Below are positions 29,249 to 51,420 of a stretch of DNA of 64,000 nucleotides, piece by piece. The stretch's first letter is position 1. Every line of letters starts with the position of its first letter. Under the pieces are notes generated by a model that searched no databases, had not been told where the DNA came from, and saw only the letters and a program-made list of their open reading frames with translations. The DNA is from an archaeon (lineage in GTDB: Archaea > EX4484-52 > B79-G9). The translations under genes were made by a program, and so were the position numbers. The DNA lies in the NCBI GenBank assembly GCA_043813875.1, contig JBDRKP010000054.1:751-64750 (forward strand), written 5' to 3'.

Positions 29249-29252
29249 GAAA

Positions 29253-31500: not shown

Positions 31501-31562
31501 ATAGATCTCTTATTGATAATCTTAATCAATAAGGTATTTAAAATGAGCCTATTTATAAATTT

Positions 31563-33295: not shown

Positions 33296-33298
33296 AAA

Positions 33299-34778: not shown

Positions 34779-34890
34779 TATAGTTGACGTCGTTACTAGC
34801 TGGACAAATATAACCTATGAACCAATAGACGTCAATCTATATGGAAAAGTCATATAGTCCAAAAAGTTATGACTTTTACTATATATCTGA
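34779..34890. repeat. Approximately 110-nt structured repeat, copy A (TATAGTTGACGTCGTTACT ... AGACGTCAATCTATATGG ... inverted repeats)
   Basis: About 80% identical to 61989-62140. It contains long-range inverted repeats (TATAGTTGACGTC / GACGTCAATCTATA; AAAAGTCATA / TATGACTTTT). Confidence 0.5.
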
Positions 34891-35664: not shown

Positions 35665-35823
35665 ACATTAACCTGTAATCTTATTTTTATCTATGGCCCA
35701 GATGATTGCAGCAAGAAAAACTTCAGCATAAGGATTGAACTTCATACCCATATTGATGATTCAGACTTTATACATTTTGTTGACGCTTCCAGCGATATGC
35801 CAGTCAGGAAAAAAAGAACGCCC

Positions 35824-37464
35824 CTACTCGCATTCGATCGTGAAACGCAGCTTTCCGCTCACAGTATTTGTCTCGATTATCCTGCAATTGGTCGGTGTCG
35901 TGATAGTCTCATTGCCCGACGGCGCCCCCGGAGTTATTATCTCCTGCGACCCCCACGGGAAAAGCTTCACCTGCTCGGTCTTGGCATCAACAACAGCAAC
36001 CGACTTCAAAGTCATCGATTCCATCACCCCTGAATACACAGGGACAACATAGTAGAACCCGCCTTTGATCTGCTTGAACAGGGGCTGCAATGCATACCAG
36101 TCGCTGTAAAGCGATATCTCGCCACGGACATCCGCCAGAGCCCTCTCAGGGCCGATAAGTCCGAGCGCCCTTGTATCATATATGGTGACATCGCCGTAAT
36201 TTTTCCCTGAAGACTCGATTTCAATGTATTGTGTTATCGCTTTTCTGGTCGGCCCTTCCGGCTCGAGCTGGACAAGGCCGAATGATCTGTCGCCGGATTT
36301 GTCATACTGGAAATAAAGGTCCTGCGCAATCTCAAAGACATCCTCATGCGTAAAATAGAAGTTCAGGAATCCCTTCCAGCTTGCGAATTCCGCCCACCTG
36401 GCGACTCGTATCTCAGAATAATCCTCATCGATCAGGACCTGGTCGGCAAGTAGCCATGGCGGCGCGTCACCGCCTTTGATCTGGTTTTCAGTATAAAGTG
36501 TGGTGCTGCCATCATTTTCAAGTACGATGACACCGACCTGTATAGTGTAGAATTTCGTGACGAATATTGTCGGGATATCAAGCTTCGCTGGAGCGAACCA
36601 CACAGGTTTTCCGTCATCGTCATGAGTGAATACAGTATCCCCATAAGTGAAATACGGGTGCTTGAGCCACAGGTTGAAGTTGACGTCCCGTATCTTGCCG
36701 GTTATTGCCTGGTATAAGAATGGAGCGAGCCCTTTTCTCTCTTCTGAGAACTCTATCGTCTCTTTGATTTTTACCCTGTCAGAAGGATTCTGTGCATTGA
36801 CAATTATATATGCCGGCGATGGCGCTCCATTATTCGCAAGCCGTGTCGGCTCGTATGCCATGACCCAGTAGAGCGTATCATCTATCGCATAGACTCCGTC
36901 CCAGTCATTTGAAAGCCTCCACCCGCTCTCAGTGACCATTGTCTTTGGCACCTGCAATGCATATTCCTGCGCCACGATACGCATATCTTTGATGTCATCC
37001 CACTCAAGATTCATCACATCAGATGCTTCCTTATTATCGACAGTCATTATCTTCGCGTCTTTCATATTGTACCAGTCGACTTCCATCGGCGGCGCGAAAA
37101 CAACAGTCAGCACTCTAAGAAAGACAAGTATAAAGATTATTGCAGTGATCAGCTTTCGCCGGGAGAATTTGATTACCTCGACTTTCTCTTTTGTGAACGC
37201 GTCCTTTATGATCTTCATGCTCACGTTTTTTGAGATACCGATAACAAAAAGCCTGAAAAACACCGCAAAAACAAGCCCGCCTATGGGGCTCGAAGTTATG
37301 ATGGCAACCCCGACGATCCAGCTGAAAAGGATGTCCCTGATAATCTTTTTCGTGGTGAAACGGGATATGAATCCGAAAACCGCAATACCCCCGACAAGAA
37401 AAGCCCACAAGGTATAGAACCCGAAAAATCCAAGAGACATGAAGAATTCCGGCCAAGGCAACAT
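35824..37464 (-). CDS. Hypothetical membrane protein with a large extracytoplasmic domain
   Basis: About 4 N-terminal TM helices followed by an approximately 400-aa Trp/Tyr-rich soluble domain ending in a Cys pair. Confidence 0.5.
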   Translation of the reverse strand: MLPWPEFFMSLGFFGFYTLWAFLVGGIAVFGFISRFTTKKIIRDILFSWIVGVAIITSSPIGGLVFAVFFRLFVIGISKNVSMKIIKDAFTKEKVEVIKFSRRKLITAIIFILVFLRVLTVVFAPPMEVDWYNMKDAKIMTVDNKEASDVMNLEWDDIKDMRIVAQEYALQVPKTMVTESGWRLSNDWDGVYAIDDTLYWVMAYEPTRLANNGAPSPAYIIVNAQNPSDRVKIKETIEFSEERKGLAPFLYQAITGKIRDVNFNLWLKHPYFTYGDTVFTHDDDGKPVWFAPAKLDIPTIFVTKFYTIQVGVIVLENDGSTTLYTENQIKGGDAPPWLLADQVLIDEDYSEIRVARWAEFASWKGFLNFYFTHEDVFEIAQDLYFQYDKSGDRSFGLVQLEPEGPTRKAITQYIEIESSGKNYGDVTIYDTRALGLIGPERALADVRGEISLYSDWYALQPLFKQIKGGFYYVVPVYSGVMESMTLKSVAVVDAKTEQVKLFPWGSQEIITPGAPSGNETITTPTNCRIIETNTVSGKLRFTIECE

Positions 37465-37641
37465 ATTCCATATATAGGGCGCGGAGTTTTATATTTCTGA
37501 CATGTTGGGAGACGGGAGGCGCGCCATATGCCATAACAATCCAAATACAATTGGTGAAATAATGATATTGAGAAGAAGCCGAAACGCAGGGTAGAAGGGC
37601 TGGGGTTCCGTTCGTAGTATTGGGGCGAGAATTGTATCATT

Positions 37642-37920
37642 TCATTTAGTGGATTTCATTTCAGTCATTAGTTTTAACATTCGTTCTCTTCTTTCGTCAA
37701 CTGATGGCGCATATTGTGGGCATGATTTGCAGGTTGATGGTACATTATCAGTAACTTCTGTCGGACAATCTTCAAACATATTTTTGCCTACGCATTTTGG
37801 ATACTTATTAGAATCAAGCTTCTTTGACCATTCTGCATCTTCTTTATTGTGGCCAAGATGATGCGCTCTGCGCAAACGTGCTCTTTCAGAGTTTTTATTG
37901 CAGTTGGGCGCAGTTGCCAT
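37642..37920 (-). CDS. Small Cys-rich hypothetical protein
   Basis: 92 aa with 8 Cys and a basic N-terminus, at the left edge of the low-GC R-M island. Confidence 0.3.
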   Translation of the reverse strand: MATAPNCNKNSERARLRRAHHLGHNKEDAEWSKKLDSNKYPKCVGKNMFEDCPTEVTDNVPSTCKSCPQYAPSVDERRERMLKLMTEMKSTK

Positions 37921-38024
37921 ACTAACTTATCCGGTCATCAATATATTTATATTTAAGGAATTTTCTCACGCCTTGACATGAAAAATAAATAGTAATAAAT
38001 AAAGGTTATGTTTAAGTATAATAT

Positions 38025-40823
38025 ATGGATGAAAAACAGACTAGAGAGCAGTTAATAGACAAACAGTTAAAATCTGCGGGCTGGCTTAAAAAATATATAA
38101 AAGAAGAAGTTAATTCGGTTAAATCAAATTTTAAAAATAAAGATTATGTGCTTTCTAAAGGCAGGAATGATGATTCGGGAAGATTTCTAGATTATTTGTT
38201 GCTGGCTGAAGATAATAGTCCAATTGCTTTAATTGAAGCCAAAAAAACCTCGGTTTCAGTAGATAGCGGGCGAGCTCAATCAAGAACATATCTTAAAGAT
38301 ATTGAATCTCAAACAAAGGAAAAAATCCCTATTTTTTTAACTAATGGTACTAACTGGCTTCTCATAGATCAAGATGGAATTGAGCGATATGTTAGTGGGC
38401 CTTTCTCCCAATCGGACTTGAAAAGAAGGATGGAACTTTTTAGAAAGAGGAGAGATCCGACTAAAATCAATATCGGAAAAATTGTAGATCGGCCAAAAAG
38501 CATTCTTATTGTTAAACAAATGATGGAACATATTCAAAATGGTCACAGAACAGCCTTAATAAATATGGCTACAGGAACAGGAAAGACCAGGGTTGCTATG
38601 GCAATTATTGATGTTCTGCTTAGAGCAAATATTGTGAGGAATGTTTTATTTATCGCTGATAGAATTGCATTGACTAATCAGGCAAAATCGGCTGGTTTTA
38701 AGGAATTTTTTGGTAGTGAAGCGGTAACCGATTTACGTGATAATCCTCAAAGTTTTCCAAATGGCTTATATGTTTCAACAATTCAGACCCTTAAGGGTGG
38801 TAAGAAAAGAAGATACTATCCTAAAATTAATTCCGGATTTTTTGATTTGATTATTTTTGATGAAGCCCATAGATCTATTTATGATCCGACCCAAGAAATA
38901 TTTAGATATTTTGATGCCATAAAACTTGGACTTACAGCAACGCCATCAAAAGAGGAAAGTCATAACACATTTAAGTTGTTTGGTTGTGTTGACAATAAGC
39001 CAACAGTTGAATATTCTTATGATGAAGCAATACGGGATGGAGTTTTAGTTCCTTATAATGCGGAGATAATTGATACAAAAAATTTAACACTGGGAATCGA
39101 AGGAGCTAAACTTGATAAGTATCTTCAAGACCAATTAAGAAAACAAGAAGAAGATCCAAATTATACTATGCTTTCAGGCGGGTCTTTTGCAAAAGTTTTT
39201 ATGGATGACAAAACTAATGAATTGATTATCCGAGAATTTATGAATAGATGTTATAAATCTGATGAAGGAAAACCGGCAAAAACGATATTCTTTTGTGCAA
39301 ATCAAAAACATGCATGGCATATTAAACGAATATTTAGTAAATTATATCCTAAGTTAAATGATGATGTTCAGGTAATAGTTTCAGAGGTTTATCGTTATAC
39401 TGATGAATTGGCTAGATTCAAATTAGATTCTGAGCCAAGAATAGCTTTATCTGTTGGTGTTTTAGATACGGGAGTTGATATACCCGAAGTGTGCAATTTA
39501 GTTTTTGTTAAACCCGTTTTCACACCAATAAGGTTTTGGCAAATGTTGGGTAGAGGGACTAGAAATTATAATTCTTGTAAGCATAAAGACTGGCTTCCAA
39601 ATAGTGAGAAAAATGATTTTTTAATTATGGATTTTAAAATTGGAGAGCATTCAAATATCAAGTATCATAATCTTAAAGTTGCCAAAGAAAGTAAGGCCGG
39701 AACAGATTCTATGACTATAAGTTTCATAAATAAAGTAGAACTGTTAAAGAAAAAATTAAACCCTACTCAAAAAGAATTTGTTGAAACAAAAATCATTAAT
39801 GAGGTAGATTCCTTAGATAAAGATTCGTTTATTGTCAGAGAAAAACTTTCATTAATTAATACTATATTGGATACTAGGAGCGTTTCTTCTAAATCAATGA
39901 TGGTTGCAGAAACAAAAGAACCGTATGGGGCTAGTATAAAGAAAACTGTAAGATCACGATTTGAGTTAAAAGATTACATCGGTGAATTAAAAAATGAGAT
40001 TGCGCCACTTATTTCGTTAAATCCTGGAAAACATCCTATTGTTTCTTCATTCATTTTACAAGTTGAAAAATTATTCAAGTTTATTTTAGATAATAATAAA
40101 GACGGCATATATAAGATACAAGAATCGGTTAAAGAAAAAATGGAGAATATCTTACAGAAAGATAATTTGGAAGCGATTCAAGAAAAAAGACAAGACATAT
40201 TGAGGGTTTTTCAAGAGAACTTCTGGGATGAACTGACTTTTTACGATGTTGAGTTTATGATTACAGAGCTTGCACCATTGATGGTTTATTATGAAAAAAA
40301 TCCAAAAAGAATGATTCAGATTGATGCTCCAGATTTAGTTTTAAAGGTTGAAGAATTCAAGAAAGAAGTTAAAGTGGACGACGAATTAATTAAATTTTTA
40401 GAAACAAATCCTCTTGTCAATAAAATCAGGAACGGGGAAGGAATAACTCCCGCTGAATTGCTCAAGCTTGAGGAACAATTAAGTGCATTACGACCAGAAA
40501 TAACTATTGATAATGTCCAGAGGATTCAAAAGATTGATTTTTTGGTTTTCTTAAGAAATATATTGGGCTTGAAGCAAGAATACGACCCTTCGGTTTTGAT
40601 AGAGCGGGAGTTTGACAAGCATATTCTTGAAAAAAGCCAGCATTATACTTCTGAGCAGATAAAGTTCTTACAGATTTTAAAAAAGGTGTTTGCTCGTACA
40701 AAGCACATAGAATTAAAGGATTTTACGGTTCCGCCTCTTTCTAATGAACGGCCTCTTGATAAGTTTCAGACTTCCGAGCTTCAAAGAATAGTTCTTGAGT
40801 GTAATAAGATTAAGATGAGGTAA
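38025..40823 (+). CDS. hsdR: Type I restriction enzyme, R subunit
   Basis: N-terminal HsdR_N nuclease-like domain (LLLAEDNSPIALIEAKK), helicase motif I NMATGTGKT, and motif II DEAH (IIFDEAHRS). 932 aa. Confidence 0.8.
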   Translation: MDEKQTREQLIDKQLKSAGWLKKYIKEEVNSVKSNFKNKDYVLSKGRNDDSGRFLDYLLLAEDNSPIALIEAKKTSVSVDSGRAQSRTYLKDIESQTKEKIPIFLTNGTNWLLIDQDGIERYVSGPFSQSDLKRRMELFRKRRDPTKINIGKIVDRPKSILIVKQMMEHIQNGHRTALINMATGTGKTRVAMAIIDVLLRANIVRNVLFIADRIALTNQAKSAGFKEFFGSEAVTDLRDNPQSFPNGLYVSTIQTLKGGKKRRYYPKINSGFFDLIIFDEAHRSIYDPTQEIFRYFDAIKLGLTATPSKEESHNTFKLFGCVDNKPTVEYSYDEAIRDGVLVPYNAEIIDTKNLTLGIEGAKLDKYLQDQLRKQEEDPNYTMLSGGSFAKVFMDDKTNELIIREFMNRCYKSDEGKPAKTIFFCANQKHAWHIKRIFSKLYPKLNDDVQVIVSEVYRYTDELARFKLDSEPRIALSVGVLDTGVDIPEVCNLVFVKPVFTPIRFWQMLGRGTRNYNSCKHKDWLPNSEKNDFLIMDFKIGEHSNIKYHNLKVAKESKAGTDSMTISFINKVELLKKKLNPTQKEFVETKIINEVDSLDKDSFIVREKLSLINTILDTRSVSSKSMMVAETKEPYGASIKKTVRSRFELKDYIGELKNEIAPLISLNPGKHPIVSSFILQVEKLFKFILDNNKDGIYKIQESVKEKMENILQKDNLEAIQEKRQDILRVFQENFWDELTFYDVEFMITELAPLMVYYEKNPKRMIQIDAPDLVLKVEEFKKEVKVDDELIKFLETNPLVNKIRNGEGITPAELLKLEEQLSALRPEITIDNVQRIQKIDFLVFLRNILGLKQEYDPSVLIEREFDKHILEKSQHYTSEQIKFLQILKKVFARTKHIELKDFTVPPLSNERPLDKFQTSELQRIVLECNKIKMR

Positions 40824-40825
40824 TT

Positions 40826-40851
40826 TGTAAACTTGAGTTTACAAATTAGCT
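40826..40851. terminator. Perfect 11-bp inverted repeat (AATTTGTAAAC-ttga-GTTTACAAATT) 3 bp after the hsdR stop
   Basis: Read directly from the sequence. It lies between hsdR and the embedded operon. Confidence 0.4.
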
Positions 40852-40868
40852 AAAGGTATATAAAGCTA

Positions 40869-41288
40869 TTGGTTCAAGTTATTGATATGATTAAAGAAAA
40901 ATGGGATGATAAGTATGATGTCAAGACGGTATCTGCTAAACTCAACCAGCTGGATTTTGTTAAATTTAAAATACACTGTGATACTAAAGGCATAACTCCT
41001 TCAAAGGAAATTAAAAATTTAATCGCTCATGAAATTAATGATCCAATAGCACAGAATGTTGCAGGTAAAAGCGTTTTTGTGTATAATCCTGCAAAAGACA
41101 ATTTCGGCTGGAAAGCTGTTTTGGATAAAGAGATTATTTCTTATATTGAAGATGACTTGTCTTTTGAATTTTTGAAGCAGTTAAAAGATGCTATTGATGT
41201 GGCAATTGATGAGCGAAACACATTCATACAGAAAACTAATAACGATTCTGTTTCAATACCAGGTAAAATACTGAGGAAAGGATTATGA
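40869..41288 (+). CDS. Hypothetical protein (first gene of the operon embedded in the R-M locus)
   Basis: 139 aa with no recognised domain. It overlaps the next gene by 4 bp. Confidence 0.4.
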   Translation: MVQVIDMIKEKWDDKYDVKTVSAKLNQLDFVKFKIHCDTKGITPSKEIKNLIAHEINDPIAQNVAGKSVFVYNPAKDNFGWKAVLDKEIISYIEDDLSFEFLKQLKDAIDVAIDERNTFIQKTNNDSVSIPGKILRKGL

Positions 41289-42157
41289 ACGAAGAAGCAA
41301 TAATCTCAAATGAAACGATAAAAAATAGAATTCATACAATCAGAGCAGTTCAAGTAATGCTGGATAGTGATTTAGCTGAATTGTATGGAATTCCTACGAA
41401 AGCGTTAAATCAAGCAGTTAAAAGGAATATTGCACGTTTTCCTGAAGATTTTATGTTTCAGTTGACCGACTCTGAAAAAGAAGAGCTGGTCACAGAATGT
41501 GACCACCTTACACCCCTTAAATTTTCTTATCAGTTGCCCAATGTATTTACAGAACAAGGCGTTGCAAGCTTATCGGGTGTTTTGAAAAGCGAAAAGGCAA
41601 TTGAAGTAAATATCCATGTAATCAGGGCTTTTGTTTCAATGCGCAGATTTATTTCAAAAAATGCAGAACTATTTAGACGATTGGATACGGTTGAAAGAAA
41701 ACAATTAGAATATGATAATAACTTTGAGCGAGTTTTTAACGCGATTGAAAACAAAGAATTTGTTAAAAAACAAGGAATCTTTTTTGACGGTCAGATTTTT
41801 GATGCTTATAATTTTGTTTCCGACTTGATAAGAAGCGCAAAAAAATCGATTGTGCTTATCGATAACTTTGTTGATGATTCTGTATTAACATTATTTTCCA
41901 AAAGAAGCGATAATGTAAATGTCATAATTTATACAAAAACCAGAACAAAGCAACTGAGATTGGACTTGGAAAAATATAATTCTCAATATCCCGCAATTGA
42001 TATCAAGGAATTTGATCGGTCTCATGACCGATTTCTGATAATTGACAATAATGTTGTATATCATATTGGCGCATCACTGAAAGATTTAGGAAAGAAATGG
42101 TTTGCCTTTTCAAAATTTGACAAAGATGCAATAAAGTTGTTGGATAAATTAGAATGA
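41285..42157 (+). CDS. ORF6N-domain protein
   Basis: N-terminal IRAVQVMLDSDLAELYGIPTKALNQAVKRNIARFPEDFMFQLT matches the ORF6N (KilA-N-related) domain. The C-terminal approximately 170 aa are uncharacterised. Confidence 0.7.
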   Translation: MNEEAIISNETIKNRIHTIRAVQVMLDSDLAELYGIPTKALNQAVKRNIARFPEDFMFQLTDSEKEELVTECDHLTPLKFSYQLPNVFTEQGVASLSGVLKSEKAIEVNIHVIRAFVSMRRFISKNAELFRRLDTVERKQLEYDNNFERVFNAIENKEFVKKQGIFFDGQIFDAYNFVSDLIRSAKKSIVLIDNFVDDSVLTLFSKRSDNVNVIIYTKTRTKQLRLDLEKYNSQYPAIDIKEFDRSHDRFLIIDNNVVYHIGASLKDLGKKWFAFSKFDKDAIKLLDKLE

Positions 42158-42206
42158 TGGTTGTGTGTTTGAATGGATAAATTAAGTAATTTACCTAAAA
42201 GATGGA

Positions 42207-43523
42207 ATGATGTTGAATTTAACAGAAGTGAGGAGCAAAAATATGATTACTGAATCCGAAACATTAGAGTTAAAAAAATCAACATCAGAACTAAAAGAAG
42301 CAGTTATTTCTATATCTTCAATTCTTAACAAACACCAAAAAGGAAAATTATATTTCGGAATCAAAAACAATGGGGTTGTTGTAGGTCAAAATATCGGTGA
42401 ACAAACAATAAGAACTATTTCAAAAACAATTTCAGATAAGATTGAACCTAAAATTTATCCCATAATAAATGTGATTACATTACAAGAAAAAGAATGCATA
42501 ATTGTAGAATTTCAGGGAATTGATGTACCGTATTACGCATACGGAAGAACCTATATGCGCGTGGGGGATGAAGATAGACAGTTAAGCGCAAAGGAAACAG
42601 AGAATTTAATTTTACAAAATAATAAAGATAAATTTGTATGGGATAACCAAGTTAATGAAAAATTTAGTTTAAATGATATTTCAGAGGATAAATTAAAATC
42701 GTATGTTAAAGATGCGGGCTTGAAGTATACGTCAAAAAAAGAAGTTCTTGAAAAATTAGAATTAATTAAAGATGGTAAATTGACTAATGCATCAATTGTG
42801 TTGTTTGGAGTCGAACCATCAAAATATTTTAGTTTATTGAATCTTAGATGTGCAACTTTTTTGGGTGAAAATAAAGCAAGTACGCCTTTGGATATGAGTG
42901 ATTTTAACGGCGATCTTTTTGAATTGATGATTCATGCCGAAAATTATATTTTACAGCACATTAATGTAGGGATGAGACTTGAAGGATTATATCGTATTGA
43001 TGTTCCTGAAATAAACAAAGATGCATTTAGAGAAGTAATCATAAATGCTTTTTGTCATAGGGATTATTCTATACCTCAAGAAATAAATGTCGCAGTGTTT
43101 AAGGATAAAATAGAAATAAGAAACCCTGGAGAATTATATGCTGGTTTGACAATTCAAGACATTTTAACAAAAAAAGTTTCTAAGCGAAGAAATTCATTAA
43201 TTGCAAATATATTTCATCGAGTTCATTTAGTTGAAAAGTGGGGAACGGGAATTGAAAAAATAAGATCGTTAGAGCCCACTGTTGAATTTGATGAATTTTC
43301 TGGGTTTTTTAATACAACGTTTAAGAGAAAGAATGTAGTTACAACAACTGTGGAGAAAATAATTGAGCTGATAAAAGAGAATCCACGCATAACGCAAAAG
43401 GAACTGGAAGAAAAAACCAACCTTTCCAGAAGAGGTGTAGAGTGGAATATTCAGCAAATGAAATCCAAAGGTATTATAAAAAGAGTCGGACCTGATAAAG
43501 GCGGCCATTGGGAAGTTGTTTGA
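42207..43523 (+). CDS. AlbA_2 (Schlafen-like) + HATPase_c_4 + C-terminal wHTH protein (RecG-C-like 'putative transcriptional regulator')
   Basis: N-terminal ETLELKKSTSELKEAVISISSILNKHQKGKLYFGIKNNGVVVGQ (AlbA_2). The central part resembles a HATPase-like domain. The C-terminal HTH is IIELIKENPRITQKELEEKTNLSRRGVEWNIQQMKSKGIIKRV. Confidence 0.7.
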   Translation: MMLNLTEVRSKNMITESETLELKKSTSELKEAVISISSILNKHQKGKLYFGIKNNGVVVGQNIGEQTIRTISKTISDKIEPKIYPIINVITLQEKECIIVEFQGIDVPYYAYGRTYMRVGDEDRQLSAKETENLILQNNKDKFVWDNQVNEKFSLNDISEDKLKSYVKDAGLKYTSKKEVLEKLELIKDGKLTNASIVLFGVEPSKYFSLLNLRCATFLGENKASTPLDMSDFNGDLFELMIHAENYILQHINVGMRLEGLYRIDVPEINKDAFREVIINAFCHRDYSIPQEINVAVFKDKIEIRNPGELYAGLTIQDILTKKVSKRRNSLIANIFHRVHLVEKWGTGIEKIRSLEPTVEFDEFSGFFNTTFKRKNVVTTTVEKIIELIKENPRITQKELEEKTNLSRRGVEWNIQQMKSKGIIKRVGPDKGGHWEVV

Positions 43524-44196
43524 GGTGGACAAACGAAAAATAGAGATATTAAAGTTAATTGATAAGGCGAAAAATTCAAATTATTGTGAAGATTATACGA
43601 CTTTGAAACGAGCAGGATATGAAAGTGGTTTGTTAAAATCCATGATCGACGATAAGTTAATAGAGTATAATTATTCGTTTTACCTAAAAGAAAAGGGCGA
43701 GACAATATTGCGTGATTATCTTATGATTGAAGCATTAGATAAAAAAAATACACCTAAACTCAAGATTATCTTTGATAGTAATGTGTATGATGAAATTGTC
43801 TCTGGAAATTTAAACCTCAATACAATCAACAAGGAAAAATATGAATTTTATATAACCCATATTCAGTCAGACGAGATAAGTAGCTGTCCTGATAATGAAA
43901 AAAGACAAGTACTAACATTGTTTCTATTAAAAATCGCACCAATAATAATTCCTACGGAATCAATAGTTCTCGACGTTTCAAGGTTTGGAGAAGCAAAGTT
44001 TGGAGATGGTCAACTTTTAGAAAAACTAAAGATAGGTAATTCTAAACACACAAAAGATGCTTTAATAGGCGAAACTGCAATTAAAAACAAACTTATTCTC
44101 GTCACGAATGATAAAAAAATGAACATCCGTGTGAATTTAAATGGTGGAAAGGCCATAGATATACACGAATTCAAAGAGATGTTAAATAATGATTAA
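43516..44196 (+). CDS. PIN-like domain protein (putative nuclease) with an N-terminal extension
   Basis: KIIFDSNVYDEIV (first acidic PIN motif) and DALIGETAIKNKLILVTNDKK (a C-terminal PIN motif similar to VapC A.IaatA...LvT.D). Confidence 0.45.
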   Translation: MFEVDKRKIEILKLIDKAKNSNYCEDYTTLKRAGYESGLLKSMIDDKLIEYNYSFYLKEKGETILRDYLMIEALDKKNTPKLKIIFDSNVYDEIVSGNLNLNTINKEKYEFYITHIQSDEISSCPDNEKRQVLTLFLLKIAPIIIPTESIVLDVSRFGEAKFGDGQLLEKLKIGNSKHTKDALIGETAIKNKLILVTNDKKMNIRVNLNGGKAIDIHEFKEMLNND

Positions 44197-45334
44197 AGAA
44201 AAACTGCCAGACGGTTGGACGGAAGTTGAATTGGGAGATGTATTAGATTACGAACAACCAACAAAATATATTGTTGATAGTGATGAATATAATGATGATT
44301 GTAAGACTCCAGTTTTAACCGCTGGTAAGTCTTTCATTTTAGGATATACTGATGAAAATGAAGGGATATATGATAAACTACCCGTAATCATATTTGATGA
44401 TTTTACTACCGCGAATAAATTTGTTACATTTCCATTTAAAGTAAAATCAAGTGCTATGAAATTATTGACTCTAAAAACGAAGGATGCTGATTTGAAATTT
44501 ATTTTCTGGTTAATGCAAACTCTTAATGTCAATTCCATCACACATAAACGATATTATTTATCCAAATATCAACACATTAAAATCATTCTCCCACCCCTCG
44601 CCACCCAGCAAAAAATCGTCTCAATTTTAGAAAAAGCAGAAAAAGCAAAAGGATGGCGAAAAGAAGCCGATAAACTGACAAATGATTTATTGAAAAGCGT
44701 TTTTTTGGATATGTTCGGGGACCCAGTGAGAAACAATAAAAAGTGGGAGATAAAAACTATTGAAGAATTATCTTCAGAGATTGTAGATTGTCCTCATTCA
44801 ACACCAAATTATGTTGATTATGTGACCGATTTTCCTTGCATCAGAACGACCGAGCTAAAAGATGGGTACATTGATTGGAAACAAATGAAATATTTAGATG
44901 AAGAAGGATATACGAAAAGGATCAAGAGACTGATCCCCATCGAAGATGACGTGATTTATGGTAGAGAAGGTTCATTTGGTGAATCTGCAAGAGTCCCCAC
45001 CAATACCAGGATAAGTTTAGGACAGAGGGTGATGTTGTTTAGACCGAAATCAGGAGTATGCAATAGCGTATTTTTATGGGCGTTACTCAGATCTAAAAGC
45101 ATTTATTTTCAAGCATCAAAAAAAACAAGTGGCTCTACCGTAGGGCACGTTAACATAAAGGACATTAAAAAATTCAAAGGTATATGCCCTCCAATAAAAT
45201 TACAGAACGAATTTTCTCAAATCGTTGAAAAAATCGAGGCGATGCGCGTCACCCAAAAAGAATCAAAGCATGAACTCGAAAACCTGTTCAATGCGCTTAT
45301 GCAGAAAGCTTTCAAGGGGGAATTGGCAGTATGA
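44189..45334 (+). CDS. hsdS: Type I restriction-modification system, specificity subunit
   Basis: Two target-recognition domains separated by a conserved central region (ILPPLATQQKIVSILEKAEKAK) and ending in a conserved C-terminal helix (LMQKAFKGEL). Confidence 0.85.
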   Translation: MIKEKLPDGWTEVELGDVLDYEQPTKYIVDSDEYNDDCKTPVLTAGKSFILGYTDENEGIYDKLPVIIFDDFTTANKFVTFPFKVKSSAMKLLTLKTKDADLKFIFWLMQTLNVNSITHKRYYLSKYQHIKIILPPLATQQKIVSILEKAEKAKGWRKEADKLTNDLLKSVFLDMFGDPVRNNKKWEIKTIEELSSEIVDCPHSTPNYVDYVTDFPCIRTTELKDGYIDWKQMKYLDEEGYTKRIKRLIPIEDDVIYGREGSFGESARVPTNTRISLGQRVMLFRPKSGVCNSVFLWALLRSKSIYFQASKKTSGSTVGHVNIKDIKKFKGICPPIKLQNEFSQIVEKIEAMRVTQKESKHELENLFNALMQKAFKGELAV

Positions 45335-45966
45335 AAGTAAAAACAATAAAACAGTATGCTTTAAGCGAAGAAACGCTAGAAAAAGACATCGATAAATTTA
45401 TACTATCTGCGCAAAATGGCGAATACAATTACGATTACAAATACGGTCAGGAAGGGCTAAAACTCATAAAAGCATATTTTAGAATGATTGAGGACGAGTT
45501 CAAAAAACAAAATTATACAGAATGCCAAAAATGCTACAAAAAATTAATGTTTTTACTTCTTCAATCCGAATATAACTACTTTGATTACGAAGATATTGTT
45601 GGAAAACTTAATTTTGAAAAGTTAATAAAAAACTATTTTTTATGCCTAATAAATATTTTTTCCGTTGAAGAACTATTCAACGAATATGTCGAATTTCTAA
45701 AAATAAGTGAAGATTATGAATTTGATTCAACACATAAAACCATACTATCTAACTTAAATGAAAAACAATTAGAGCAATTTAGAGAATTGGCTGAAAAAAA
45801 AGCAGAAACTATCAAAAAGGGTGATTATGCTAGTTATGACATTATTTATTTTATTTTAGAATTAGCACAACTCAAAAATGATCCAATTCAGTACAACCTG
45901 TTTTGCAAGAAATACACTCATATTTTAAGCGACGATGAGGATGATGAATTTGATGCAGTTAATTAA
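45331..45966 (+). CDS. Hypothetical all-alpha protein embedded between hsdS and hsdM
   Basis: 211 aa with no recognised domain. Overlapping start and stop with hsdS. Confidence 0.4.
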   Translation: MKVKTIKQYALSEETLEKDIDKFILSAQNGEYNYDYKYGQEGLKLIKAYFRMIEDEFKKQNYTECQKCYKKLMFLLLQSEYNYFDYEDIVGKLNFEKLIKNYFLCLINIFSVEELFNEYVEFLKISEDYEFDSTHKTILSNLNEKQLEQFRELAEKKAETIKKGDYASYDIIYFILELAQLKNDPIQYNLFCKKYTHILSDDEDDEFDAVN

Positions 45967-46010
45967 GTGATCGTGCATGAATACTCCAATTGGGTACTTG
46001 AGGTGAAAAC

Positions 46011-46883
46011 ATGAATAAAAACCATTCGATAAGATTATTCGAAAACAAGAATGTAAGGGTTCAATGGAATCAAGAAGAAGAAAAATGGTATTTTTCAATT
46101 ATCGATGTAATAGAAATATTAACTGGCAGCTCAATTCCAAGAAGATATTGGTCAGACCTAAAAATAAAGCTAAAATCTGAGGGTTTTGAGTTGTACGAAA
46201 AAATCGTACAACTGAAGATGCTTTCTTCAGATGGCAAAAAATATGAAACTGATTGTGCTGACACAGAGCTAATATTAAGAATAATTCAATCCATCCAATC
46301 ACCCAAAGCAGAGCCATTCAAAGTCTGGCTTGCAAAAGTCGGTAATGATAGAATAAATGAAACTTATGACCCCGAACTGGCATTTGACCGGGCAATGAAA
46401 ACATACATTCAAAAAGGGTACTCGAAAGAGTGGATCAATCAGAGACTAAAAACAATTGAAGTAAGAAAGGATCTTACGGACGAATGGCGCCGAACAGGAA
46501 TAGAAAAAGAAACGGACTTTGCCATACTTACAAACGAAATTACAAAAGCATGGTCTGGAAAAACAATTACCGAATACAAAAATCTAAAAAATCTAAAGAA
46601 AGAAAATCTGCGTGACAATATGTCAAATCTAGAACTTGTTTTGAACATGCTTGCAGAAGCCACAACAACAGAATTTTCAAAAAAAGAAGACCCCAAAACC
46701 TTCAGCCACAGTAGGCGTGTGGCCGTATTGGGCGGCACTGTTGCAGGAAATACAAGAAAAGATATAGAAAAACAATTAGGTGAGAGCATAGTGACATCAA
46801 AAAATGCAAAAGACAATCTTTCAGAATTATCATTAAATAATGTTTTTAAAATAGATGAAAAAAAGATTAAAAAGAGGCGATAA
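46011..46883 (+). CDS. Bro-N / DinD-like domain protein
   Basis: N-terminal IRLFENKNVRVQWNQEEEKWYFSIIDVIEILTGS resembles Bro-N/DinD (DNA-damage-inducible protein D) domains. The C-terminal half is coiled-coil. Confidence 0.55.
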   Translation: MNKNHSIRLFENKNVRVQWNQEEEKWYFSIIDVIEILTGSSIPRRYWSDLKIKLKSEGFELYEKIVQLKMLSSDGKKYETDCADTELILRIIQSIQSPKAEPFKVWLAKVGNDRINETYDPELAFDRAMKTYIQKGYSKEWINQRLKTIEVRKDLTDEWRRTGIEKETDFAILTNEITKAWSGKTITEYKNLKNLKKENLRDNMSNLELVLNMLAEATTTEFSKKEDPKTFSHSRRVAVLGGTVAGNTRKDIEKQLGESIVTSKNAKDNLSELSLNNVFKIDEKKIKKRR

Positions 46884-48354
46884 TATGCTAGACTCACAAT
46901 TAAAATCAAAAATAAACTTGCTTTGGAATAAATTCTGGAGCGGAGGGATATCAAACCCGCTTCAGGCAATAGAGCAGATGTCTTACTTAATCTTTATGAA
47001 ACGACTTGAAGACGAAGATGTTTCAAGAGAGCAAAACGCAAAACTTTTAGGTGGAAAATTCACATCAATATTCCCAAAACAAGATTATAAATGGTCTGTC
47101 TGGACAGAATATCCTGCCGAACAGATGCTTGAACATGTAAGAGATAATGTTTTTCCATTCTTAAGAAAGCTTAATGGCGGAGAAAATGGCGTTTATTCTA
47201 AATACATGAAAAACGCTTCTTTTTCAATTCCCACAGCATCCCTTTTAGCAGAAGCAGTAAAAATTATAAATGATATGCACATAAAAGAGCAGAACAGAGA
47301 TACAAAAGGAGATCTTTATGAGTATCTGTTAAGCCAGCTTCAAACAGCAGGGAAAAATGGGCAGTTTAGGACACCAAGGCATATAATCAAGATGATGGTA
47401 GAAATCCTAAATCCAAAATATGGCGATAAAATCTGCGATCCTGCCTGCGGAACAGCTGGCTTTTTGGTTGCGGCCTTTGAACATATTTTGAAAAACAACA
47501 CTTCTGATGATTTAGTGAAAGAAGGGAATTATGCAGGCGATAAATTAAATGAGCTCCAATGGAGAATGTTGCGAGACGAAACACTATATGGTTATGATTT
47601 TGATGATGTGATGCTCAAAATATCATTAATGAACTTAATGATGCACGGGATAAACAATCCTAATGTTGAGCAAAAAAATACTCTTTCAAAAAGGTTTGAT
47701 GAGTCAAACAGCTATGAAATAATCCTTGCAAATCCTCCATTTAAAGGAAGCATAGATGAATCAGACATAGGGGAAAATTTTAGGACACAAACAAAAAAAA
47801 CAGAACTTTTGTTTTTGGAATTGATGTATAATCTTTTAGTAAATAGCGGAAAATGTGCGGTCATTGTTCCAGACGGCGTTTTATTCGGCAATTCAAAAGC
47901 ACATAAAAATATCCGGCAATTGCTTTTAGAAAAATGCCGTCTTGATGCTGTTATTTCGATGCCGTCCGGGGTTTTCAAGCCTTACGCGGGTGTTTCAACC
48001 GCTGTAATGTTTTTCACAAAGGGCGAGCCAACTAAAGAAGTTTGGTTTTACGACATGCAGGCAGATGGTTTTAGCCTGGATGACAAAAGAACACCTCAAC
48101 CAGAAAAGAACGATATTCCAGATATTCTGAAACAATTTAAAAATAGGCAAAAAGATAAGCCCTTGGATAGAAAAGGAAAAGCTTTCTTTGTTCCGTTTGA
48201 AGAGATTAAAGGAAACAATTATGACTTAAGTATTTCAAAATACAAAGAAATAGAATATGAGGAAGTAGCATATGAAAAGCCAGAAGTCATAAAGAAGAAG
48301 ATATTAGAACTTGAGAATAAAATTATAGATGCTTTGAAAGATTTGGAGATATAA
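46855..48354 (+). CDS. hsdM: Type I restriction-modification system, N6-adenine DNA methyltransferase subunit
   Basis: HsdM_N region, motif I DPACGTAGFLV, and motif IV NPPF (LANPPFKGS). Confidence 0.9.
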   Translation: MKKRLKRGDNMLDSQLKSKINLLWNKFWSGGISNPLQAIEQMSYLIFMKRLEDEDVSREQNAKLLGGKFTSIFPKQDYKWSVWTEYPAEQMLEHVRDNVFPFLRKLNGGENGVYSKYMKNASFSIPTASLLAEAVKIINDMHIKEQNRDTKGDLYEYLLSQLQTAGKNGQFRTPRHIIKMMVEILNPKYGDKICDPACGTAGFLVAAFEHILKNNTSDDLVKEGNYAGDKLNELQWRMLRDETLYGYDFDDVMLKISLMNLMMHGINNPNVEQKNTLSKRFDESNSYEIILANPPFKGSIDESDIGENFRTQTKKTELLFLELMYNLLVNSGKCAVIVPDGVLFGNSKAHKNIRQLLLEKCRLDAVISMPSGVFKPYAGVSTAVMFFTKGEPTKEVWFYDMQADGFSLDDKRTPQPEKNDIPDILKQFKNRQKDKPLDRKGKAFFVPFEEIKGNNYDLSISKYKEIEYEEVAYEKPEVIKKKILELENKIIDALKDLEI

Positions 48355-48610
48355 AGACACGCCCTCCATAAATATCTTTTTCTTTAGAAAAAGCCTAACA
48401 GTGCGAAGCACCGACGCTCCCCGTAATCTTGAGACGAAGCCGAAACACACTGTCCGAAGGACAACGCCCATCTCTCGTTTTTTAAAAAGTAATCCAAGAA
48501 TTGAAATCAACAACGAATTCTATTCACTTTTCCACGCTCTTCTTATTCTCCAACTCACATCATAAATAATCGCCAATTACCCAAAAAATCCATCAAGCGC
48601 CACCCCACCC

Positions 48611-49375
48611 TCAAACAGCATCACTCTTCTCAAAAAAATAAGCCCCAAGAGACACCATGATTACAGAGAACCCAAGAAGCACAAAAAAATCAGTCGCAAC
48701 CCCAAACGACGAAAACCCGATAAGCGCTCCCCGCAACCCGTCAACCCCGTAAGTAAGCGGATCAAGATACGACAGGTACCGAACAACAGCCGGCAGGTTC
48801 TCAAGCGGGAACAGTGCCCCCGACAAGAAGAAAAGCGGGAAGATGACGAAATTCATTATCATGTTGAACCCCTGTATGTCCTTCATATTCGATGCGAAGA
48901 TAAGCCCAAGCCCGATAAACGTGCAGGCGATCAAGACCATGAACACCACCGCAGTCAGAAACTGCGCCACTCCCACAACCTCAAAACCCATCAGCAAAGA
49001 GATCAGAAGAATCATCATCCCCTGGATCAAAGCCGTAGTAGTCCCGCCTGCGATCCTCCCAAGGACGATAGACACCCGGTCGACCGGCGCCACCATGATC
49101 TCCTTCAGGAACCCGAACTCCCTGTCCCACAGGACCGAGATTCCCGCAAACATGGACGTAAAAAGCATAGTCATCCCGATGATCCCCGGCACAAGAAACT
49201 GGATATAATTGACCCCGCTAGGCACATTAGGGATAGCCGCCGTATTGAACCCGAACCCGAGAAACGCAAGAAAAAAAAGCGGCATCGCAAGAGTGCCGAT
49301 AATCCTCGACTTGGCCCGCACAAACCTCTTCATCTCCCGAAGCCACATCACATAGATCGCAGTCGTATTAATCAT
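48611..49375 (-). CDS. ABC-2 type transporter permease
   Basis: 6 TM helices of the ABC-2 family. It overlaps the upstream ATPase gene by 4 bp. Confidence 0.8.
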   Translation of the reverse strand: MINTTAIYVMWLREMKRFVRAKSRIIGTLAMPLFFLAFLGFGFNTAAIPNVPSGVNYIQFLVPGIIGMTMLFTSMFAGISVLWDREFGFLKEIMVAPVDRVSIVLGRIAGGTTTALIQGMMILLISLLMGFEVVGVAQFLTAVVFMVLIACTFIGLGLIFASNMKDIQGFNMIMNFVIFPLFFLSGALFPLENLPAVVRYLSYLDPLTYGVDGLRGALIGFSSFGVATDFFVLLGFSVIMVSLGAYFFEKSDAV

Positions 49376-50370
49376 CGTCTCATCCTCATTCTCCTCTTGA
49401 TCAATTCCCTGTTCCGCTCCCCCTGGCTTGCTTCCTCCTCCCTTATGGTCTTCCCCGTGAAATGCAGGAACACATCCTCAAGGCTCGGCTTATGCAGGTT
49501 CACGCTCACGACATTGGTCCCCGTCTTCTCTGCCGCGCTCATAAGCTCAGGGATCCTCTTCTCGCCGCTCACGGCAGTTATATCAATATGCCTTTCGCGC
49601 TCCTTGATCTTCTGGACCCACTTGAACCCGGAAAGTACATCCCTGAACTTCTTGACATCACCCTCGATCTCGAGGCATATCGCATCCCCGCCAAGCACAT
49701 CCTTCAGTTTCGCCGGCGTATCCATGGCGACAATCTTCCCATTATCGATGATAGCGATCCTGTCGCATAGATAGTCCGCCTCCTCCATATAATGCGTAGT
49801 AAGAATTATCGTGACCTGCCCCTCCTTATTCAGCTTCTGGATATACTCCCAGATATGCCTCCTCGTCTGCGGGTCAAGCCCAAGCGTCGGCTCGTCAAGA
49901 AAAAGCACCTTAGGCCTGTGGATAAGCCCCCTTGCGATCTCAAGCCTCCTCTTCATGCCCCCTGAATAATTCTCGACAAGCACATCTGCCTTATCCTTAA
50001 GCTCGACAAGCGAAAGCACCTCATTAATCCTCTCATCTCTCAGTTTTTTCTGCATCCCGTACATCATCGCATGGAACTCAAGATTCTCCCGACCGGTGAG
50101 CTGGAAATCAAGCGCAGGCTCCTGAAAGACAATCCCTATGCTTCTCCTCACATCATCCTTGTGGAGGCTCACGTCAAACCCTGCCACTTCAGCATGGCCA
50201 GACGTAGATTTAAGCAGAGTGGAAAGAATATTGATAGTAGTCGTCTTGCCGGCGCCATTAGGCCCAAGCAGCCCGAAAAGCTCACCAGTTTTAACAGCAA
50301 ACGAAAGAGAATCCACAGCAACAAAATCCCCGAACTTCTTGGTCAGCTTTTCAACCTTTATAGCATCCAT
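49372..50370 (-). CDS. ABC transporter ATP-binding protein (DrrA-like exporter ATPase)
   Basis: GPNGAGKTT, YSGGMKRRL and LFLDEPTLGLD, with a C-terminal extension typical of the DrrA/CcmA family. Confidence 0.9.
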   Translation of the reverse strand: MDAIKVEKLTKKFGDFVAVDSLSFAVKTGELFGLLGPNGAGKTTTINILSTLLKSTSGHAEVAGFDVSLHKDDVRRSIGIVFQEPALDFQLTGRENLEFHAMMYGMQKKLRDERINEVLSLVELKDKADVLVENYSGGMKRRLEIARGLIHRPKVLFLDEPTLGLDPQTRRHIWEYIQKLNKEGQVTIILTTHYMEEADYLCDRIAIIDNGKIVAMDTPAKLKDVLGGDAICLEIEGDVKKFRDVLSGFKWVQKIKERERHIDITAVSGEKRIPELMSAAEKTGTNVVSVNLHKPSLEDVFLHFTGKTIREEEASQGERNRELIKRRMRMRR

Positions 50371-50432
50371 AAACTCACAATCATATTATTGATTCAAATC
50401 ATCTTAAAATTTGCAGTCATTCCCGACATCAA

Positions 50433-51393: not shown

Positions 51394-51416
51394 CCGACAA
51401 CTGTCTCAGAAAATAA
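50503..51416 (+). pseudogene. IS6-family transposase, N-terminus disrupted (frameshift between MSRLHKL and the zinc-finger/HTH frame)
   Basis: The ATG at about 50503 gives MSRLHKL then a stop. The +1 frame continues RFKCKSCGSVF...LSFREVREIM into the tracked ORF 50715..51416 (HMDELF ... TDGFF ... IIERLQNTLRR, a DDE-like motif). Compare the intact N-terminus of copy 2 (MSCCIYCGS...RFYCKDCMRIF). Confidence 0.6.
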
Positions 51417-51420
51417 TATA

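What the first reader, a model, noticed from the sequence alone, without database searches (positions are those of the whole stretch)
37568..48460. R-M island (about 37.6-48.4 kb) bounded by an imperfect 31-33-bp direct repeat
TTGAGAAGAAGCCGAAACGCAGGGTAGAAGG (37568-37598) and CTTGAGACGAAGCCGAAACACACTGTCCGAAGG (48428-48460) share about 28 of 33 positions. They bracket the entire low-GC R-M region plus the small Cys-rich gene, and composition changes sharply just outside them. This is the signature of site-specific integration (att-like repeats), but no integrase is present in the island. That leaves either a decayed integrative element or a recombination hotspot that swaps defense cassettes.
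Basis: seen in the sequence. Interest (0 to 1): 0.5.

Follow-up and report, generated by a model that had tools for sequence, protein, structure and literature searches.

The report
Restriction cassette flanked by terminator-module copies
The two short repeats around this restriction-modification island are real, but they are most likely two diverged copies of a non-coding tail that travels with the restriction operon, not scars left by an integrase, so this is an ordinary swappable defence cassette in a tiny (DPANN) archaeon.

Summary
The repeat is real: 37565-37598 and 48426-48460 match at 28/35 positions with an 11-nt exact core, which is rare by chance. It brackets a 10.8-kb segment of 33% GC between flanks of 47-51% GC.

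The segment is a type I R-M operon (hsdR, hsdS, hsdM) with nested accessory genes and no recombinase. The host is a DPANN archaeon.

Copy 2 lies in a ~120-nt non-coding module (two small hairpins, then T6A5) that follows hsdM. Near-identical cassettes in other archaea carry the same module:
- In L071, HsdR and HsdM are 90-92% identical to the window's, while flanking genes are 25-54% identical. There is no second repeat at the other end.
- L078 lacks the repeat altogether.

Copy 1 is the truncated half of an older copy of this module. A 90%-identical relative (L068) has that copy intact at the same place, and its homology to the window stops exactly at 37598. A same-species strain (L001) carries different cargo starting at the ABC-2 stop codon (48610).

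Each copy has a closer relative elsewhere than its partner, and there is no attL/attR hybrid pattern. The "att site / decayed integrative element" reading is therefore not supported. The "hotspot that swaps defence cassettes" reading is. This is ordinary, with modest interest.

The parts
37565..37598 (+). Repeat copy 1 (R1). It is the truncated 5' half of a resident copy of the cassette 3' module and sits about 100 nt upstream of the start of the 546-aa gene (which is on the - strand).
   Evidence: It is contiguous with the orthologous sequence in L068, whose homology to the window ends exactly at 37598. nhmmer E=3e-4 to 9e-4 with a profile of the module.
37465..37564 (-). Segment Y: the upstream/promoter region of the 546-aa membrane-protein gene. 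This is resident chromosomal sequence.
   Evidence: 85% identical to L068. The proximal 42 nt are also conserved in L064.
35824..37464 (-). Core 546-aa membrane protein gene (left flank). It is conserved in Aenigmarchaeota and other DPANN MAGs.
37642..37920 (-). 92-aa Cys-rich ORF with no family match. It lies inside the inserted segment but is not part of the cassette shared with other genomes.
38025..40823 (+). hsdR, type I restriction subunit (EcoAI/type IB-like).
   Evidence: Pfam ResIII, HSDR_N and EcoEI_R_C. PADLOC REase_I. 90.6% aa identity to L071.
40869..42157 (+). A 139-aa ORF and an ORF6N-domain gene (PADLOC PDC-S05). Both are conserved members of the cassette in L071 and L078.
42207..44196 (+). 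Nested accessory genes specific to this copy: a Schlafen/AlbA_2-HATPase_c_4-wHTH protein (438 aa) and a 226-aa ORF.
   Evidence: Absent from L071 and L078.
44189..45334 (+). hsdS, specificity subunit. It is divergent, 29-34% identical to the other cassettes.
45331..46883 (+). Nested accessory genes: a 211-aa ORF and a Bro-N protein (PADLOC PDC-S13).
46855..48354 (+). hsdM, type I methyltransferase.
   Evidence: Homologs of 86-96% aa identity occur in MAGs labelled Micrarchaeota, Nanoarchaeota, Woesearchaeota, Nitrosotalea and Nitrosopumilus.
48401..48522 (+). Cassette 3' non-coding module. Components: hairpin GTGC-GAA-GCAC (48401-48411), repeat copy 2, hairpin TGTCC-GAA-GGACA (48451-48463), T6A5 tract (48478-48488), and about 35 further nt.
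   Evidence: 90% identical to L072 3130-3250. About 75-80% identical to L071 up to 48487. A profile built from L071 and L072 only finds it at E=1e-24 and finds L068's copy at E=7e-4. Its role as a terminator is inferred, not shown.
48426..48460 (+). Repeat copy 2 (R2), an internal part of the module above.
   Evidence: 94% identical to the L072 copy.
48523..48610 (.). Unique non-coding stretch between the module and the ABC-2 stop codon. It still lies inside the segment that differs from same-species strain L001.
48611..50370 (-). Right flank: ABC-2 permease and ABC ATPase genes. They are 99.6% identical to L001, and the homology ends at 48610.

Best explanation
The two repeats are paralogous copies of one non-coding module, not junctions created by integration.

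**The module.** It is about 95-120 nt long: two small hairpins followed by a T6A5 tract. It forms the 3' end of a type I R-M operon that is spreading horizontally among archaea. It probably acts as the operon's oligo-T terminator, possibly in both directions.

**Copy 2** is inside the module that came in with the present cassette.

**Copy 1** is the left half of an older copy of the same module. That copy was already sitting about 100 nt upstream of the core 546-aa gene, and the relative L068 still has it intact.

**The event.** The present 10.8-11 kb cassette occupies a locus between the 546-aa gene and the ABC-2 transporter genes. Different strains carry different cargo there. Its left junction falls inside the old module, so only the half called copy 1 survives.

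**Shown**
- The module belongs to the cassette.
- The exact breakpoints.
- The absence of a recombinase.
- The variability of the locus.

**Inferred**
- The cassette entered, or replaced earlier cargo, by host recombination. The resident module may have served as a patch of homology, with an illegitimate join at the other end.
- The module functions as a terminator.
For: 1. L071, L069/L070 and L072 carry the same module directly downstream of hsdM or of genes added after it. blastn similarity to the window runs to 48487 and 48522.
2. In L071, HsdR and HsdM are 90.6% and 92.4% identical to the window's proteins, while neighbouring genes are 25-54% identical. Non-coding similarity of 75-80% therefore cannot be resident DNA and must have moved with the cassette.
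3. L071 has no second copy at the hsdR end. A look-alike there does not exceed natural background. L078-L080 share the cassette only to 48421 and lack the repeat.
4. L068 (90.6% nt identity, 91% aa in the 546-aa protein) aligns to window 35698-37598, and its residues 316-397 align to 48511-48426. A complete module sits at the position of copy 1.
5. Pairwise identities:
   - R1-L068 85%
   - segment Y 85%
   - R2-L072 94%
   - R1-R2 80%
   - X(window)-X(L072) 87.5%
   - X(window)-X(L068) 75%
   The diagnostic positions right of the core group R1 with L068 and R2 with the cassette copies, so there is no hybrid.
6. L001 is 99.6% identical over window 48610-59393. It diverges at the ABC-2 stop codon into DUF4352 and DUF2326 (PDC-M68B) genes.
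7. No integrase or transposase lies in the island. No tRNA or known RNA is present.
8. HsdM homologs of 86-96% identity occur across several archaeal phyla.
Against: - L068 does look like a classical empty site: one repeat copy, with the left flank on one side and module sequence resembling the right side of copy 2 on the other. This is also what site-specific or repeat-mediated insertion or excision would leave.
- The host of L072 is unknown, so its 87.5-94% identity could partly reflect relatedness of hosts rather than of cassettes.
- The difference between 75% and 85% identity over about 52 nt is only marginally significant.
- Only four independent copies of the module are available.
- The left junction in the same-species strain could not be recovered.
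- The module shows no structure more stable than shuffled sequence and no covariation, so the terminator role rests on the T6 tract and its position alone.
- The order of events cannot be decided: insertion in the window lineage, or deletion between the repeats in the L068 lineage.
Confidence: 0.6

Rival explanations
1. att-like repeats. A circular R-M element integrated by site-specific recombination into a resident attB (the R-X sequence seen in L068). This left attL (copy 1) and attR (copy 2). The integrase was later lost or acts in trans.
For: - L068 has a single copy joining both outer flanks for about 60-95 nt.
- The left boundary of the island is exactly at the inner edge of copy 1.
- There is an 11-nt identical core.
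- The composition is foreign.
Against: - No recombinase gene lies in the island.
- There is no tRNA or conserved-gene target.
- Copy 2 and the 27+ nt to its right are cassette-borne in L071, whose genome is otherwise very distant. The supposed chromosomal arm of attR is therefore not chromosomal.
- There is no attL/attR hybrid pattern.
- Sister cassettes have one copy or none.
- In L001 the variable DNA extends 150 nt beyond copy 2.
Confidence: 0.12
2. Repeat-mediated loss. A window-like arrangement with two copies is ancestral. L068 lost the cassette by recombination or microhomology (GAAGG) between copy 1 and copy 2. The repeats would then matter for deletion rather than for insertion.
For: - L068's structure Y-R-X is exactly the product expected from a deletion between the right ends of the two copies.
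- The Y|R junction is shared by the window and L068, so copy 1 predates their split.
Against: - It does not explain where copy 1 came from. It still needs an older module copy, so it is a variant of the best explanation rather than an alternative.
- The sequence to the right of X in L068 is unrelated to window 48523-48610 and the ABC-2 gene.
Confidence: 0.15
3. Insertion with long target duplication (Nobusato/Furuta class). The R-M unit inserted without a mobile-element enzyme and duplicated about 33 bp of target.
For: - R and M genes lie in the insert, the insert is under 20 kb, the repeat is about 31-35 bp, and the repeat aligns with a single copy in another genome. These are the criteria quoted from PMC2853133.
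-.
Against: - The copies are only 80% identical.
- Copy 2 is 94% identical to the copy carried by the L072 cassette. It sits in a module that accompanies hsdM in other genomes, so it was not made by copying the target.
Confidence: 0.05
4. Chance similarity between two unrelated intergenic sequences.
For: - The repeat is short and imperfect.
- The 11-mer core alone is not significant.
- Exact-pattern scans of huge collections return chance-level hits.
Against: - Boundary-pair score P is about 0.003, and 0.0005 by shuffling.
- Copy 1 is the collinear remnant of a full-length module in L068. That module is itself significantly similar to the cassette modules, at E=7e-4 with an independent profile.
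Confidence: 0.04

Closest known systems
R-M gene complexes flanked by direct repeats, as classified by Furuta, Abe and Kobayashi 2010 (PMC2853133). The classes are site-specific recombination, insertion with long target duplication, and insertion between pre-existing repeated sequences or allelic substitution.
   Same: - An R-M operon under 20 kb with foreign composition and no mobility gene.
- It is flanked by about 33-bp direct repeats.
- One repeat copy aligns with a related genome that lacks the operon.
- The locus shows allelic substitution between strains.
   Different: - The repeats are neither a fresh target duplication nor att hybrids.
- One copy is part of the operon's own 3' non-coding module, and the other is a relic of an earlier copy of that module.
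- The host is a DPANN archaeon rather than a bacterium.
Defence-island hotspots and the E. coli hsd "immigration control region", where different cassettes lie between the same core genes. This comparison rests on my own knowledge plus the hsd example cited in PMC2853133.
   Same: - A same-species strain (L001) carries different, candidate-defence cargo next to the same ABC-2 gene.
- Accessory defence-associated genes are nested in and next to the R-M operon.
- No dedicated mobility gene is present.
   Different: - Only the right flank could be compared within the species.
- Synteny of the two flanks is not conserved in more distant relatives (L064, L065).
Genomic islands integrated at tRNA or small-RNA genes that carry a replacement copy of the target's 3' end.
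   Same: A full copy of a short sequence lies at one end of the island and a partial copy at the other.
   Different: - There is no tRNA or known RNA gene.
- There is no integrase.
- The full copy moves with the cargo to unrelated loci and genomes.
Integron attC sites.
   Same: An imperfect hairpin-containing non-coding element lies at the 3' end of a gene cassette, and extra genes are inserted just upstream of it (L072).
   Different: - By inspection of the sequence, there are no RYYYAAC / GTTRRRY core sites.
- There is no IntI.
- The cassette is a 10-kb multi-gene operon.
- There is no array.

Membership tests
Type I restriction-modification system | HsdR (helicase-nuclease), HsdS (two target-recognition domains) and HsdM (N6-adenine methyltransferase) are encoded together. 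| tested here: met
   Pfam ResIII/HSDR_N/EcoEI_R_C, Methylase_S, and N6_Mtase/HsdM_N. PADLOC REase_I, Specificity_I and MTase_I.
Integrative element with att sites (site-specific recombination) | A tyrosine or serine recombinase is encoded in or beside the element. | tested here: not met
   No recombinase domain is found in any of the 10 island ORFs with Pfam, NCBIfam or PADLOC. The nearest mobility gene is an IS240-type DDE transposase at 50715-51416, beyond the ABC genes, and it is also present in L001.
Integrative element with att sites (site-specific recombination) | Direct repeats at both ends share an identical core. | tested here: met
   28/35 identity with an 11-nt exact core.
Integrative element with att sites (site-specific recombination) | A related genome has an empty site with one repeat copy joining both flanks. 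| tested here: inconclusive
   L068 joins the left flank to one copy plus about 60-95 nt resembling the sequence right of copy 2. Further out it is not syntenic. The sequence right of copy 2 is itself cassette-borne.
Integrative element with att sites (site-specific recombination) | attL and attR are hybrids of attB and attP, and the outer arm of each is chromosomal. | tested here: not met
   Copy 1 is of the resident (L068) type throughout. Copy 2 and its outer arm are of the cassette type (L072, L071).
Integrative element with att sites (site-specific recombination) | The same element elsewhere is bounded by the same repeats. | tested here: not met
   L071/L069 have one copy only. L078-L080 have none.
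Insertion with long target duplication (PMC2853133 criteria) | R and M genes lie in the insert, the insert is under 20 kb, and the duplication is over 30 bp. | tested here: met
   The insert is 10.8 kb with hsdR, hsdS and hsdM. The repeat of 31-35 nt is borderline.
Insertion with long target duplication (PMC2853133 criteria) | Both repeat copies derive from the single target sequence. | tested here: not met
   Copy 2 is 94% identical to the L072 cassette copy and 80% identical to copy 1. It belongs to a module linked to hsdM in other genomes.
Defence-cassette hotspot (allelic substitution between conserved flanks) | Conspecific genomes carry different cargo at the same flank. | tested here: met
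   L001 is 99.6% identical up to 48610, then carries unrelated DUF4352 and DUF2326/PDC-M68B genes.
Defence-cassette hotspot (allelic substitution between conserved flanks) | Both flanks are conserved across the strains compared. | not testable with these tools
   The contig of GCA_043805675.1 ends 1.3 kb into its cargo. No contig from that assembly with the 546-aa gene is on record.
Integron cassette / attC | R''(RYYYAAC) and R'(GTTRRRY) core sites, with an IntI integrase nearby. | tested here: not met
   Inspection of 48401-48522 on both strands shows no such cores. No integrase is present.
Archaeal oligo-T transcription terminator | A run of at least 5 T lies on the coding strand downstream of the last gene, and transcripts end there. 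| not testable with these tools
   A T6 tract at 48478-48483 lies 124 nt after the hsdM stop. The complementary strand has T5, facing the convergent ABC-2 gene. No transcript data are available. Folding is no more stable than shuffled sequence.

The most novel reading that the evidence does not exclude
The R-X module might be a dedicated landing or exchange site for defence cassettes in DPANN and other archaea. It would be a hairpin-containing, attC-like element at which a host or trans-encoded recombinase, or a structure-specific break in the hairpin loop, inserts, truncates and swaps whole operons. This would explain two things: breakpoints between genomes cluster at its edges (48421, 48460/37598, 48487, 48522), and new genes appear just upstream of it (L072).
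Probability: 0.07. Interest if true: 0.65.

Novelty: new member of a known kind. Interest (0 to 1): 0.27.

Why it matters
- It shows how a short direct repeat around a genomic island can look like att sites without being one. A non-coding tail carried by the cassette met a relic of an earlier copy at the same locus.
- It documents one type I R-M operon, including its non-coding 3' module, shared at about 90% protein identity between archaea whose neighbouring genes are only 25-54% identical. It also documents repeated cassette turnover at one locus in a DPANN genome with no mobility gene.
- This is useful for annotating archaeal defence islands and as a caution for repeat-based island callers. 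It does not reveal a new mechanism.

Tried and rejected
**Collection scans**
- I scanned genome contigs for the exact pattern TTGAGANGAAGCCGAAAC. It gave 62 single hits in unrelated bacteria, about the number I estimate for chance (roughly 70, from collection size and 17 specified bases). The pattern was too strict: it would miss the L068, L071 and L072 variants.
- The metagenome scan with a 21-base pattern gave one sequence (L066/L067) in ORF-poor, eukaryote-like DNA that shares only 24-26 nt. I judged it a chance hit.
- Three viral contigs pattern scans gave nothing, or one chance 20-mer in a 58% GC phage contig.
- An hsdM search of viral contigs gave only relatives of 53% identity or less, without the module.
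- Plasmid and phage blastn with hsdM plus the module found only distant bacterial hsdM coding similarity.

**RNA tests**
- Rfam at gathering and at E-value thresholds found nothing credible.
I therefore dropped the idea of a small RNA gene as the target.

**Other leads**
- Translating the repeat as a peptide gave only spurious overlapping ORFs.
- A look-alike of the module upstream of hsdR in L071 (CGAAGC...TGTCC-GTTA-GGAC...T6) looked like a second flanking copy by eye. It is matched or exceeded by other L071 windows used as natural controls, so I rejected it. The L078 look-alike was also not significant.
- Exact-protein look-ups for the 546-aa, 251-aa and 92-aa proteins and for P0001 found no contigs. 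The same-species left junction could not be obtained.
- The bacterial-type terminator scan does not flag the module.
Full report
**1. The observation**

- Extended by three bases (37565-37598 vs 48426-48460) they share 28 of 35, with one short gap, a 21/24 ungapped block and an 11-nt exact core GAAGCCGAAAC.
- The 21-nt degenerate core occurs only at these two sites in the window, with 0.01 expected.
- 9 of 2817 random pairs of 400-nt window segments, and 1 of 2000 shuffles, reach the observed alignment score.
- The 11-mer alone is not significant.

The segment between the repeats has 33% GC, against 47% and 51% in the flanking genes. Its tetranucleotide correlation with the rest of the window is 0.72, against 0.95-0.97 for controls. 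The composition switch, however, lies a few hundred bases inside or outside the repeats rather than exactly on them.

**2. What the island is**

The window comes from a DPANN archaeal MAG.
- The flanking 546-aa membrane protein has homologs of 50-83% identity only in Aenigmarchaeota, Nanoarchaeota and other DPANN MAGs.
- Neighbouring contig genes include an A-type ATP synthase and DUF22.

The island encodes a type I R-M system: hsdR 38025-40823, hsdS 44189-45334 and hsdM 46855-48354. It also encodes the following.
- A 139-aa ORF and an ORF6N protein (PADLOC PDC-S05).
- A Schlafen/AlbA_2-ATPase-wHTH protein plus a 226-aa ORF.
- A 211-aa ORF and a Bro-N protein (PDC-S13).
- On the other strand, a 92-aa Cys-rich ORF next to copy 1.

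No recombinase, transposase, tRNA or Rfam family is present. The flanks are the 546-aa gene (35824-37464, - strand) and an ABC-2 permease/ATPase pair (48611-50370, - strand).

**3. The cassette is horizontally mobile and carries copy 2 with it**

HsdM has homologs of 86-96% identity in MAGs labelled Micrarchaeota, Nanoarchaeota, Woesearchaeota, Nitrosotalea and Nitrosopumilus. I fetched four contexts.

*L071 (GCA_030638485.1; L069 and L070 are the same).*
- It has hsdR-133aa-ORF6N-hsdS-hsdM between a ZnuABC operon and a DUF134/NifX/CbiA block.
- Its HsdR and HsdM are 90.6% and 92.4% identical to the window's. The shared neighbouring gene families are only 25-54% identical.
- blastn similarity to the window runs from the hsdR start (38025) to 48487. 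It therefore passes through copy 2 and 27 nt beyond it, up to the T-tract.

*L072.*
- hsdM is followed by two extra genes (PDC-M50A and a ThsB-like TIR protein).
- After them comes a 122-nt stretch 90% identical to window 48401-48522.

*L078-L080.*
- Similarity stops at 48421, just before copy 2, and there is no repeat.

*Layout of the module (window 48401-48522).*
- A hairpin GTGC-GAA-GCAC.
- The repeat (R).
- A hairpin TGTCC-GAA-GGACA, whose 3' arm begins where the repeat ends.
- A T6A5 tract and about 35 more bases (X).

L071's genome is far too distant for resident non-coding DNA to stay 75-80% identical. R and at least the first 27 nt of X must therefore move with the cassette. None of these sister cassettes has a second R at its hsdR end. 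A look-alike upstream of the L071 hsdR does not exceed natural background.

**4. Copy 1 is a relic of another copy of the same module**

A cluster member of the 546-aa protein (P0043, 91% identical) lies on a 2.3-kb contig, L068 (GCA_014874525.1).
- L068 aligns to window 35698-37598 at 90.6%. The homology stops exactly at the inner edge of copy 1.
- L068 316-397 aligns to window 48511-48426.
- L068 therefore has Y-R-X: a complete R-X module directly next to the upstream region (Y) of the 546-aa gene.
- A profile built from L071 and L072 alone finds the L068 module at E=7e-4.
- The more distant relatives L064 (82% nt) and L065 lack it, and their upstream neighbours differ.

The Y|R junction is shared by the window and L068, so this module copy predates their split. 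In the window only its R half remains.

**5. Tests of the att interpretation**

Pairwise identities are as follows.

| Comparison | Identity |
|---|---|
| R1 vs L068 R | 85% |
| Y (window vs L068) | 85% |
| R2 vs L072 R | 94% |
| R1 vs R2 | 80% |
| X (window) vs X (L072) | 87.5% |
| X (window) vs X (L068) | 75% |

- The diagnostic positions to the right of the core (G/A, GG/CT, the indel) group R1 with L068 and R2 with the cassette copies. A crossover in the GAAGCCGAAAC core would have produced the opposite hybrid pattern.
- A crossover at the extreme right end of R would make X resident. X is cassette-borne, as the L071 argument above shows.
- The same-species strain L001 (99.6% identical over 48610-59393) diverges at the ABC-2 stop codon, 150 nt outside copy 2. 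Its cargo there is a DUF4352 gene and a DUF2326/PDC-M68B gene.

The repeats are therefore not the limits of the strain-variable segment on that side. Together with the lack of any recombinase, the "decayed integrative element" reading is not supported.

**6. Most likely history and mechanism**

Shown:
- The module belongs to the cassette.
- A resident older copy exists at this locus.
- The left breakpoint lies inside it.
- The right side varies within the species.

Inferred:
- At least two rounds of cassette gain took place at this locus.
- The present cassette (37599 to about 48522-48610) entered by host recombination. The resident module possibly provided a short homology patch on one side, with an illegitimate join at the R|X boundary on the other.
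- Equally possible is that the two-copy state is older and L068 lost the cassette by recombination between the copies. The data cannot order these events.

The module's T6A5 tract sits between convergent hsdM and ABC-2 genes in the window, and between tandem genes in L068. This fits an oligo-T, possibly bidirectional, archaeal terminator. Folding gives no support for a structured RNA, and no transcript data exist.

**7. Comparison with known systems**

Furuta et al. 2010 (PMC2853133) divide direct repeats flanking R-M complexes into three groups: site-specific recombination, insertion with long target duplication, and insertion between pre-existing repeats. They also describe allelic substitution.
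- By their operational criteria this locus would pass as "long target duplication or site-specific integration": R and M genes in the insert, under 20 kb, repeat over 30 bp, and the repeat aligning to a single copy in another genome.
- The origin of copy 2 shows it belongs instead with pre-existing related sequences and substitution.
- It also resembles bacterial defence hotspots and the hsd "immigration control region".
- It is not an integron cassette: there are no attC core sites and no IntI.

**8. Verdict**

The finding is a real repeat with an ordinary explanation. It is a new example of a known kind: an R-M cassette in a variable locus, flanked by related non-coding sequence. The points of modest interest are the cross-phylum spread of the operon together with its non-coding tail, and the exact reuse of one locus in a DPANN genome without any mobility gene.

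A small residual probability remains that the module is a genuine recombination or landing site.

Noticed in passing
window 38025-48354; L071 3882-11470; L078 4694-11470: One type I R-M operon (hsdR, 133/139-aa ORF, ORF6N, hsdS, hsdM) is shared at 81-92% protein identity between archaeal genomes whose neighbouring genes are 25-54% identical. HsdM homologs of 86% identity or more carry labels from Micrarchaeota, Nanoarchaeota, Woesearchaeota, Nitrosotalea and Nitrosopumilus. HsdS alone is divergent at 29-34%.
   Followed up: partly
window 42207-44196 and 45331-46883; L072 2198-3116: Accessory genes are nested inside the R-M operon at different points in different copies. The window has a Schlafen/AlbA_2 ATPase plus a 226-aa ORF between ORF6N and hsdS, and a 211-aa ORF plus Bro-N (PDC-S13) between hsdS and hsdM. 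L072 has a PDC-M50A/ThsB-TIR pair between hsdM and the 3' module.
   Followed up: partly
window 50433-50459, 51371-51395, 53878-53904 (with ORFs 50715-51416 and 51338-53296): Three copies of a 25-27-nt inverted repeat (92-93% complementary) surround an IS240/IS6-type DDE transposase gene and a 652-aa ORF without family matches. This looks like an IS plus a solo end, or a composite unit. L001 has the same genes, so the structure is not specific to this strain's island.
   Followed up: no
window 5948-6001, 17180-17233, 34134-34187: A 54-nt direct-repeat family (80-89% identity) contains an inverted repeat TGAAAT...ATTTCA followed by T5. The third copy overlaps the stop codon of the ZnuB-like gene, at the right edge of the second low-GC region. 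It may be another conserved gene-end module in this genome.
   Followed up: no
window 28000-34150: A second compositionally atypical block has GC 0.36 and tetranucleotide r 0.74 against the rest of the window. It encodes DUF134, two NifX-like proteins, a methyltransferase, a CbiA/Fer4 protein, FUR and ZnuABC. The same gene families flank the R-M cassette in L071, but at only 25-54% protein identity.
   Followed up: partly
window 34779-34853 and 61991-62064: A direct repeat of about 75 nt (81-88% identity) lies in two intergenic regions 27 kb apart. The first copy lies between the 251-aa gene and the thioredoxin-like gene.
   Followed up: no
L066 3933-3956 and L067 2068-2091 (metagenome Ga0209755): A 24-26-nt exact-pattern match to the repeat lies in ORF-poor, eukaryote-like contigs that overlap each other by 131 nt at their ends. 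I judged it a chance match with no further similarity to the window.
   Followed up: yes
window 37642-37920 (- strand): A 92-aa Cys-rich ORF has no match in Pfam, NCBIfam or PADLOC and no counterpart in any fetched locus. It occupies the segment between copy 1 and the hsdR promoter and has intermediate GC (0.36).
   Followed up: partly
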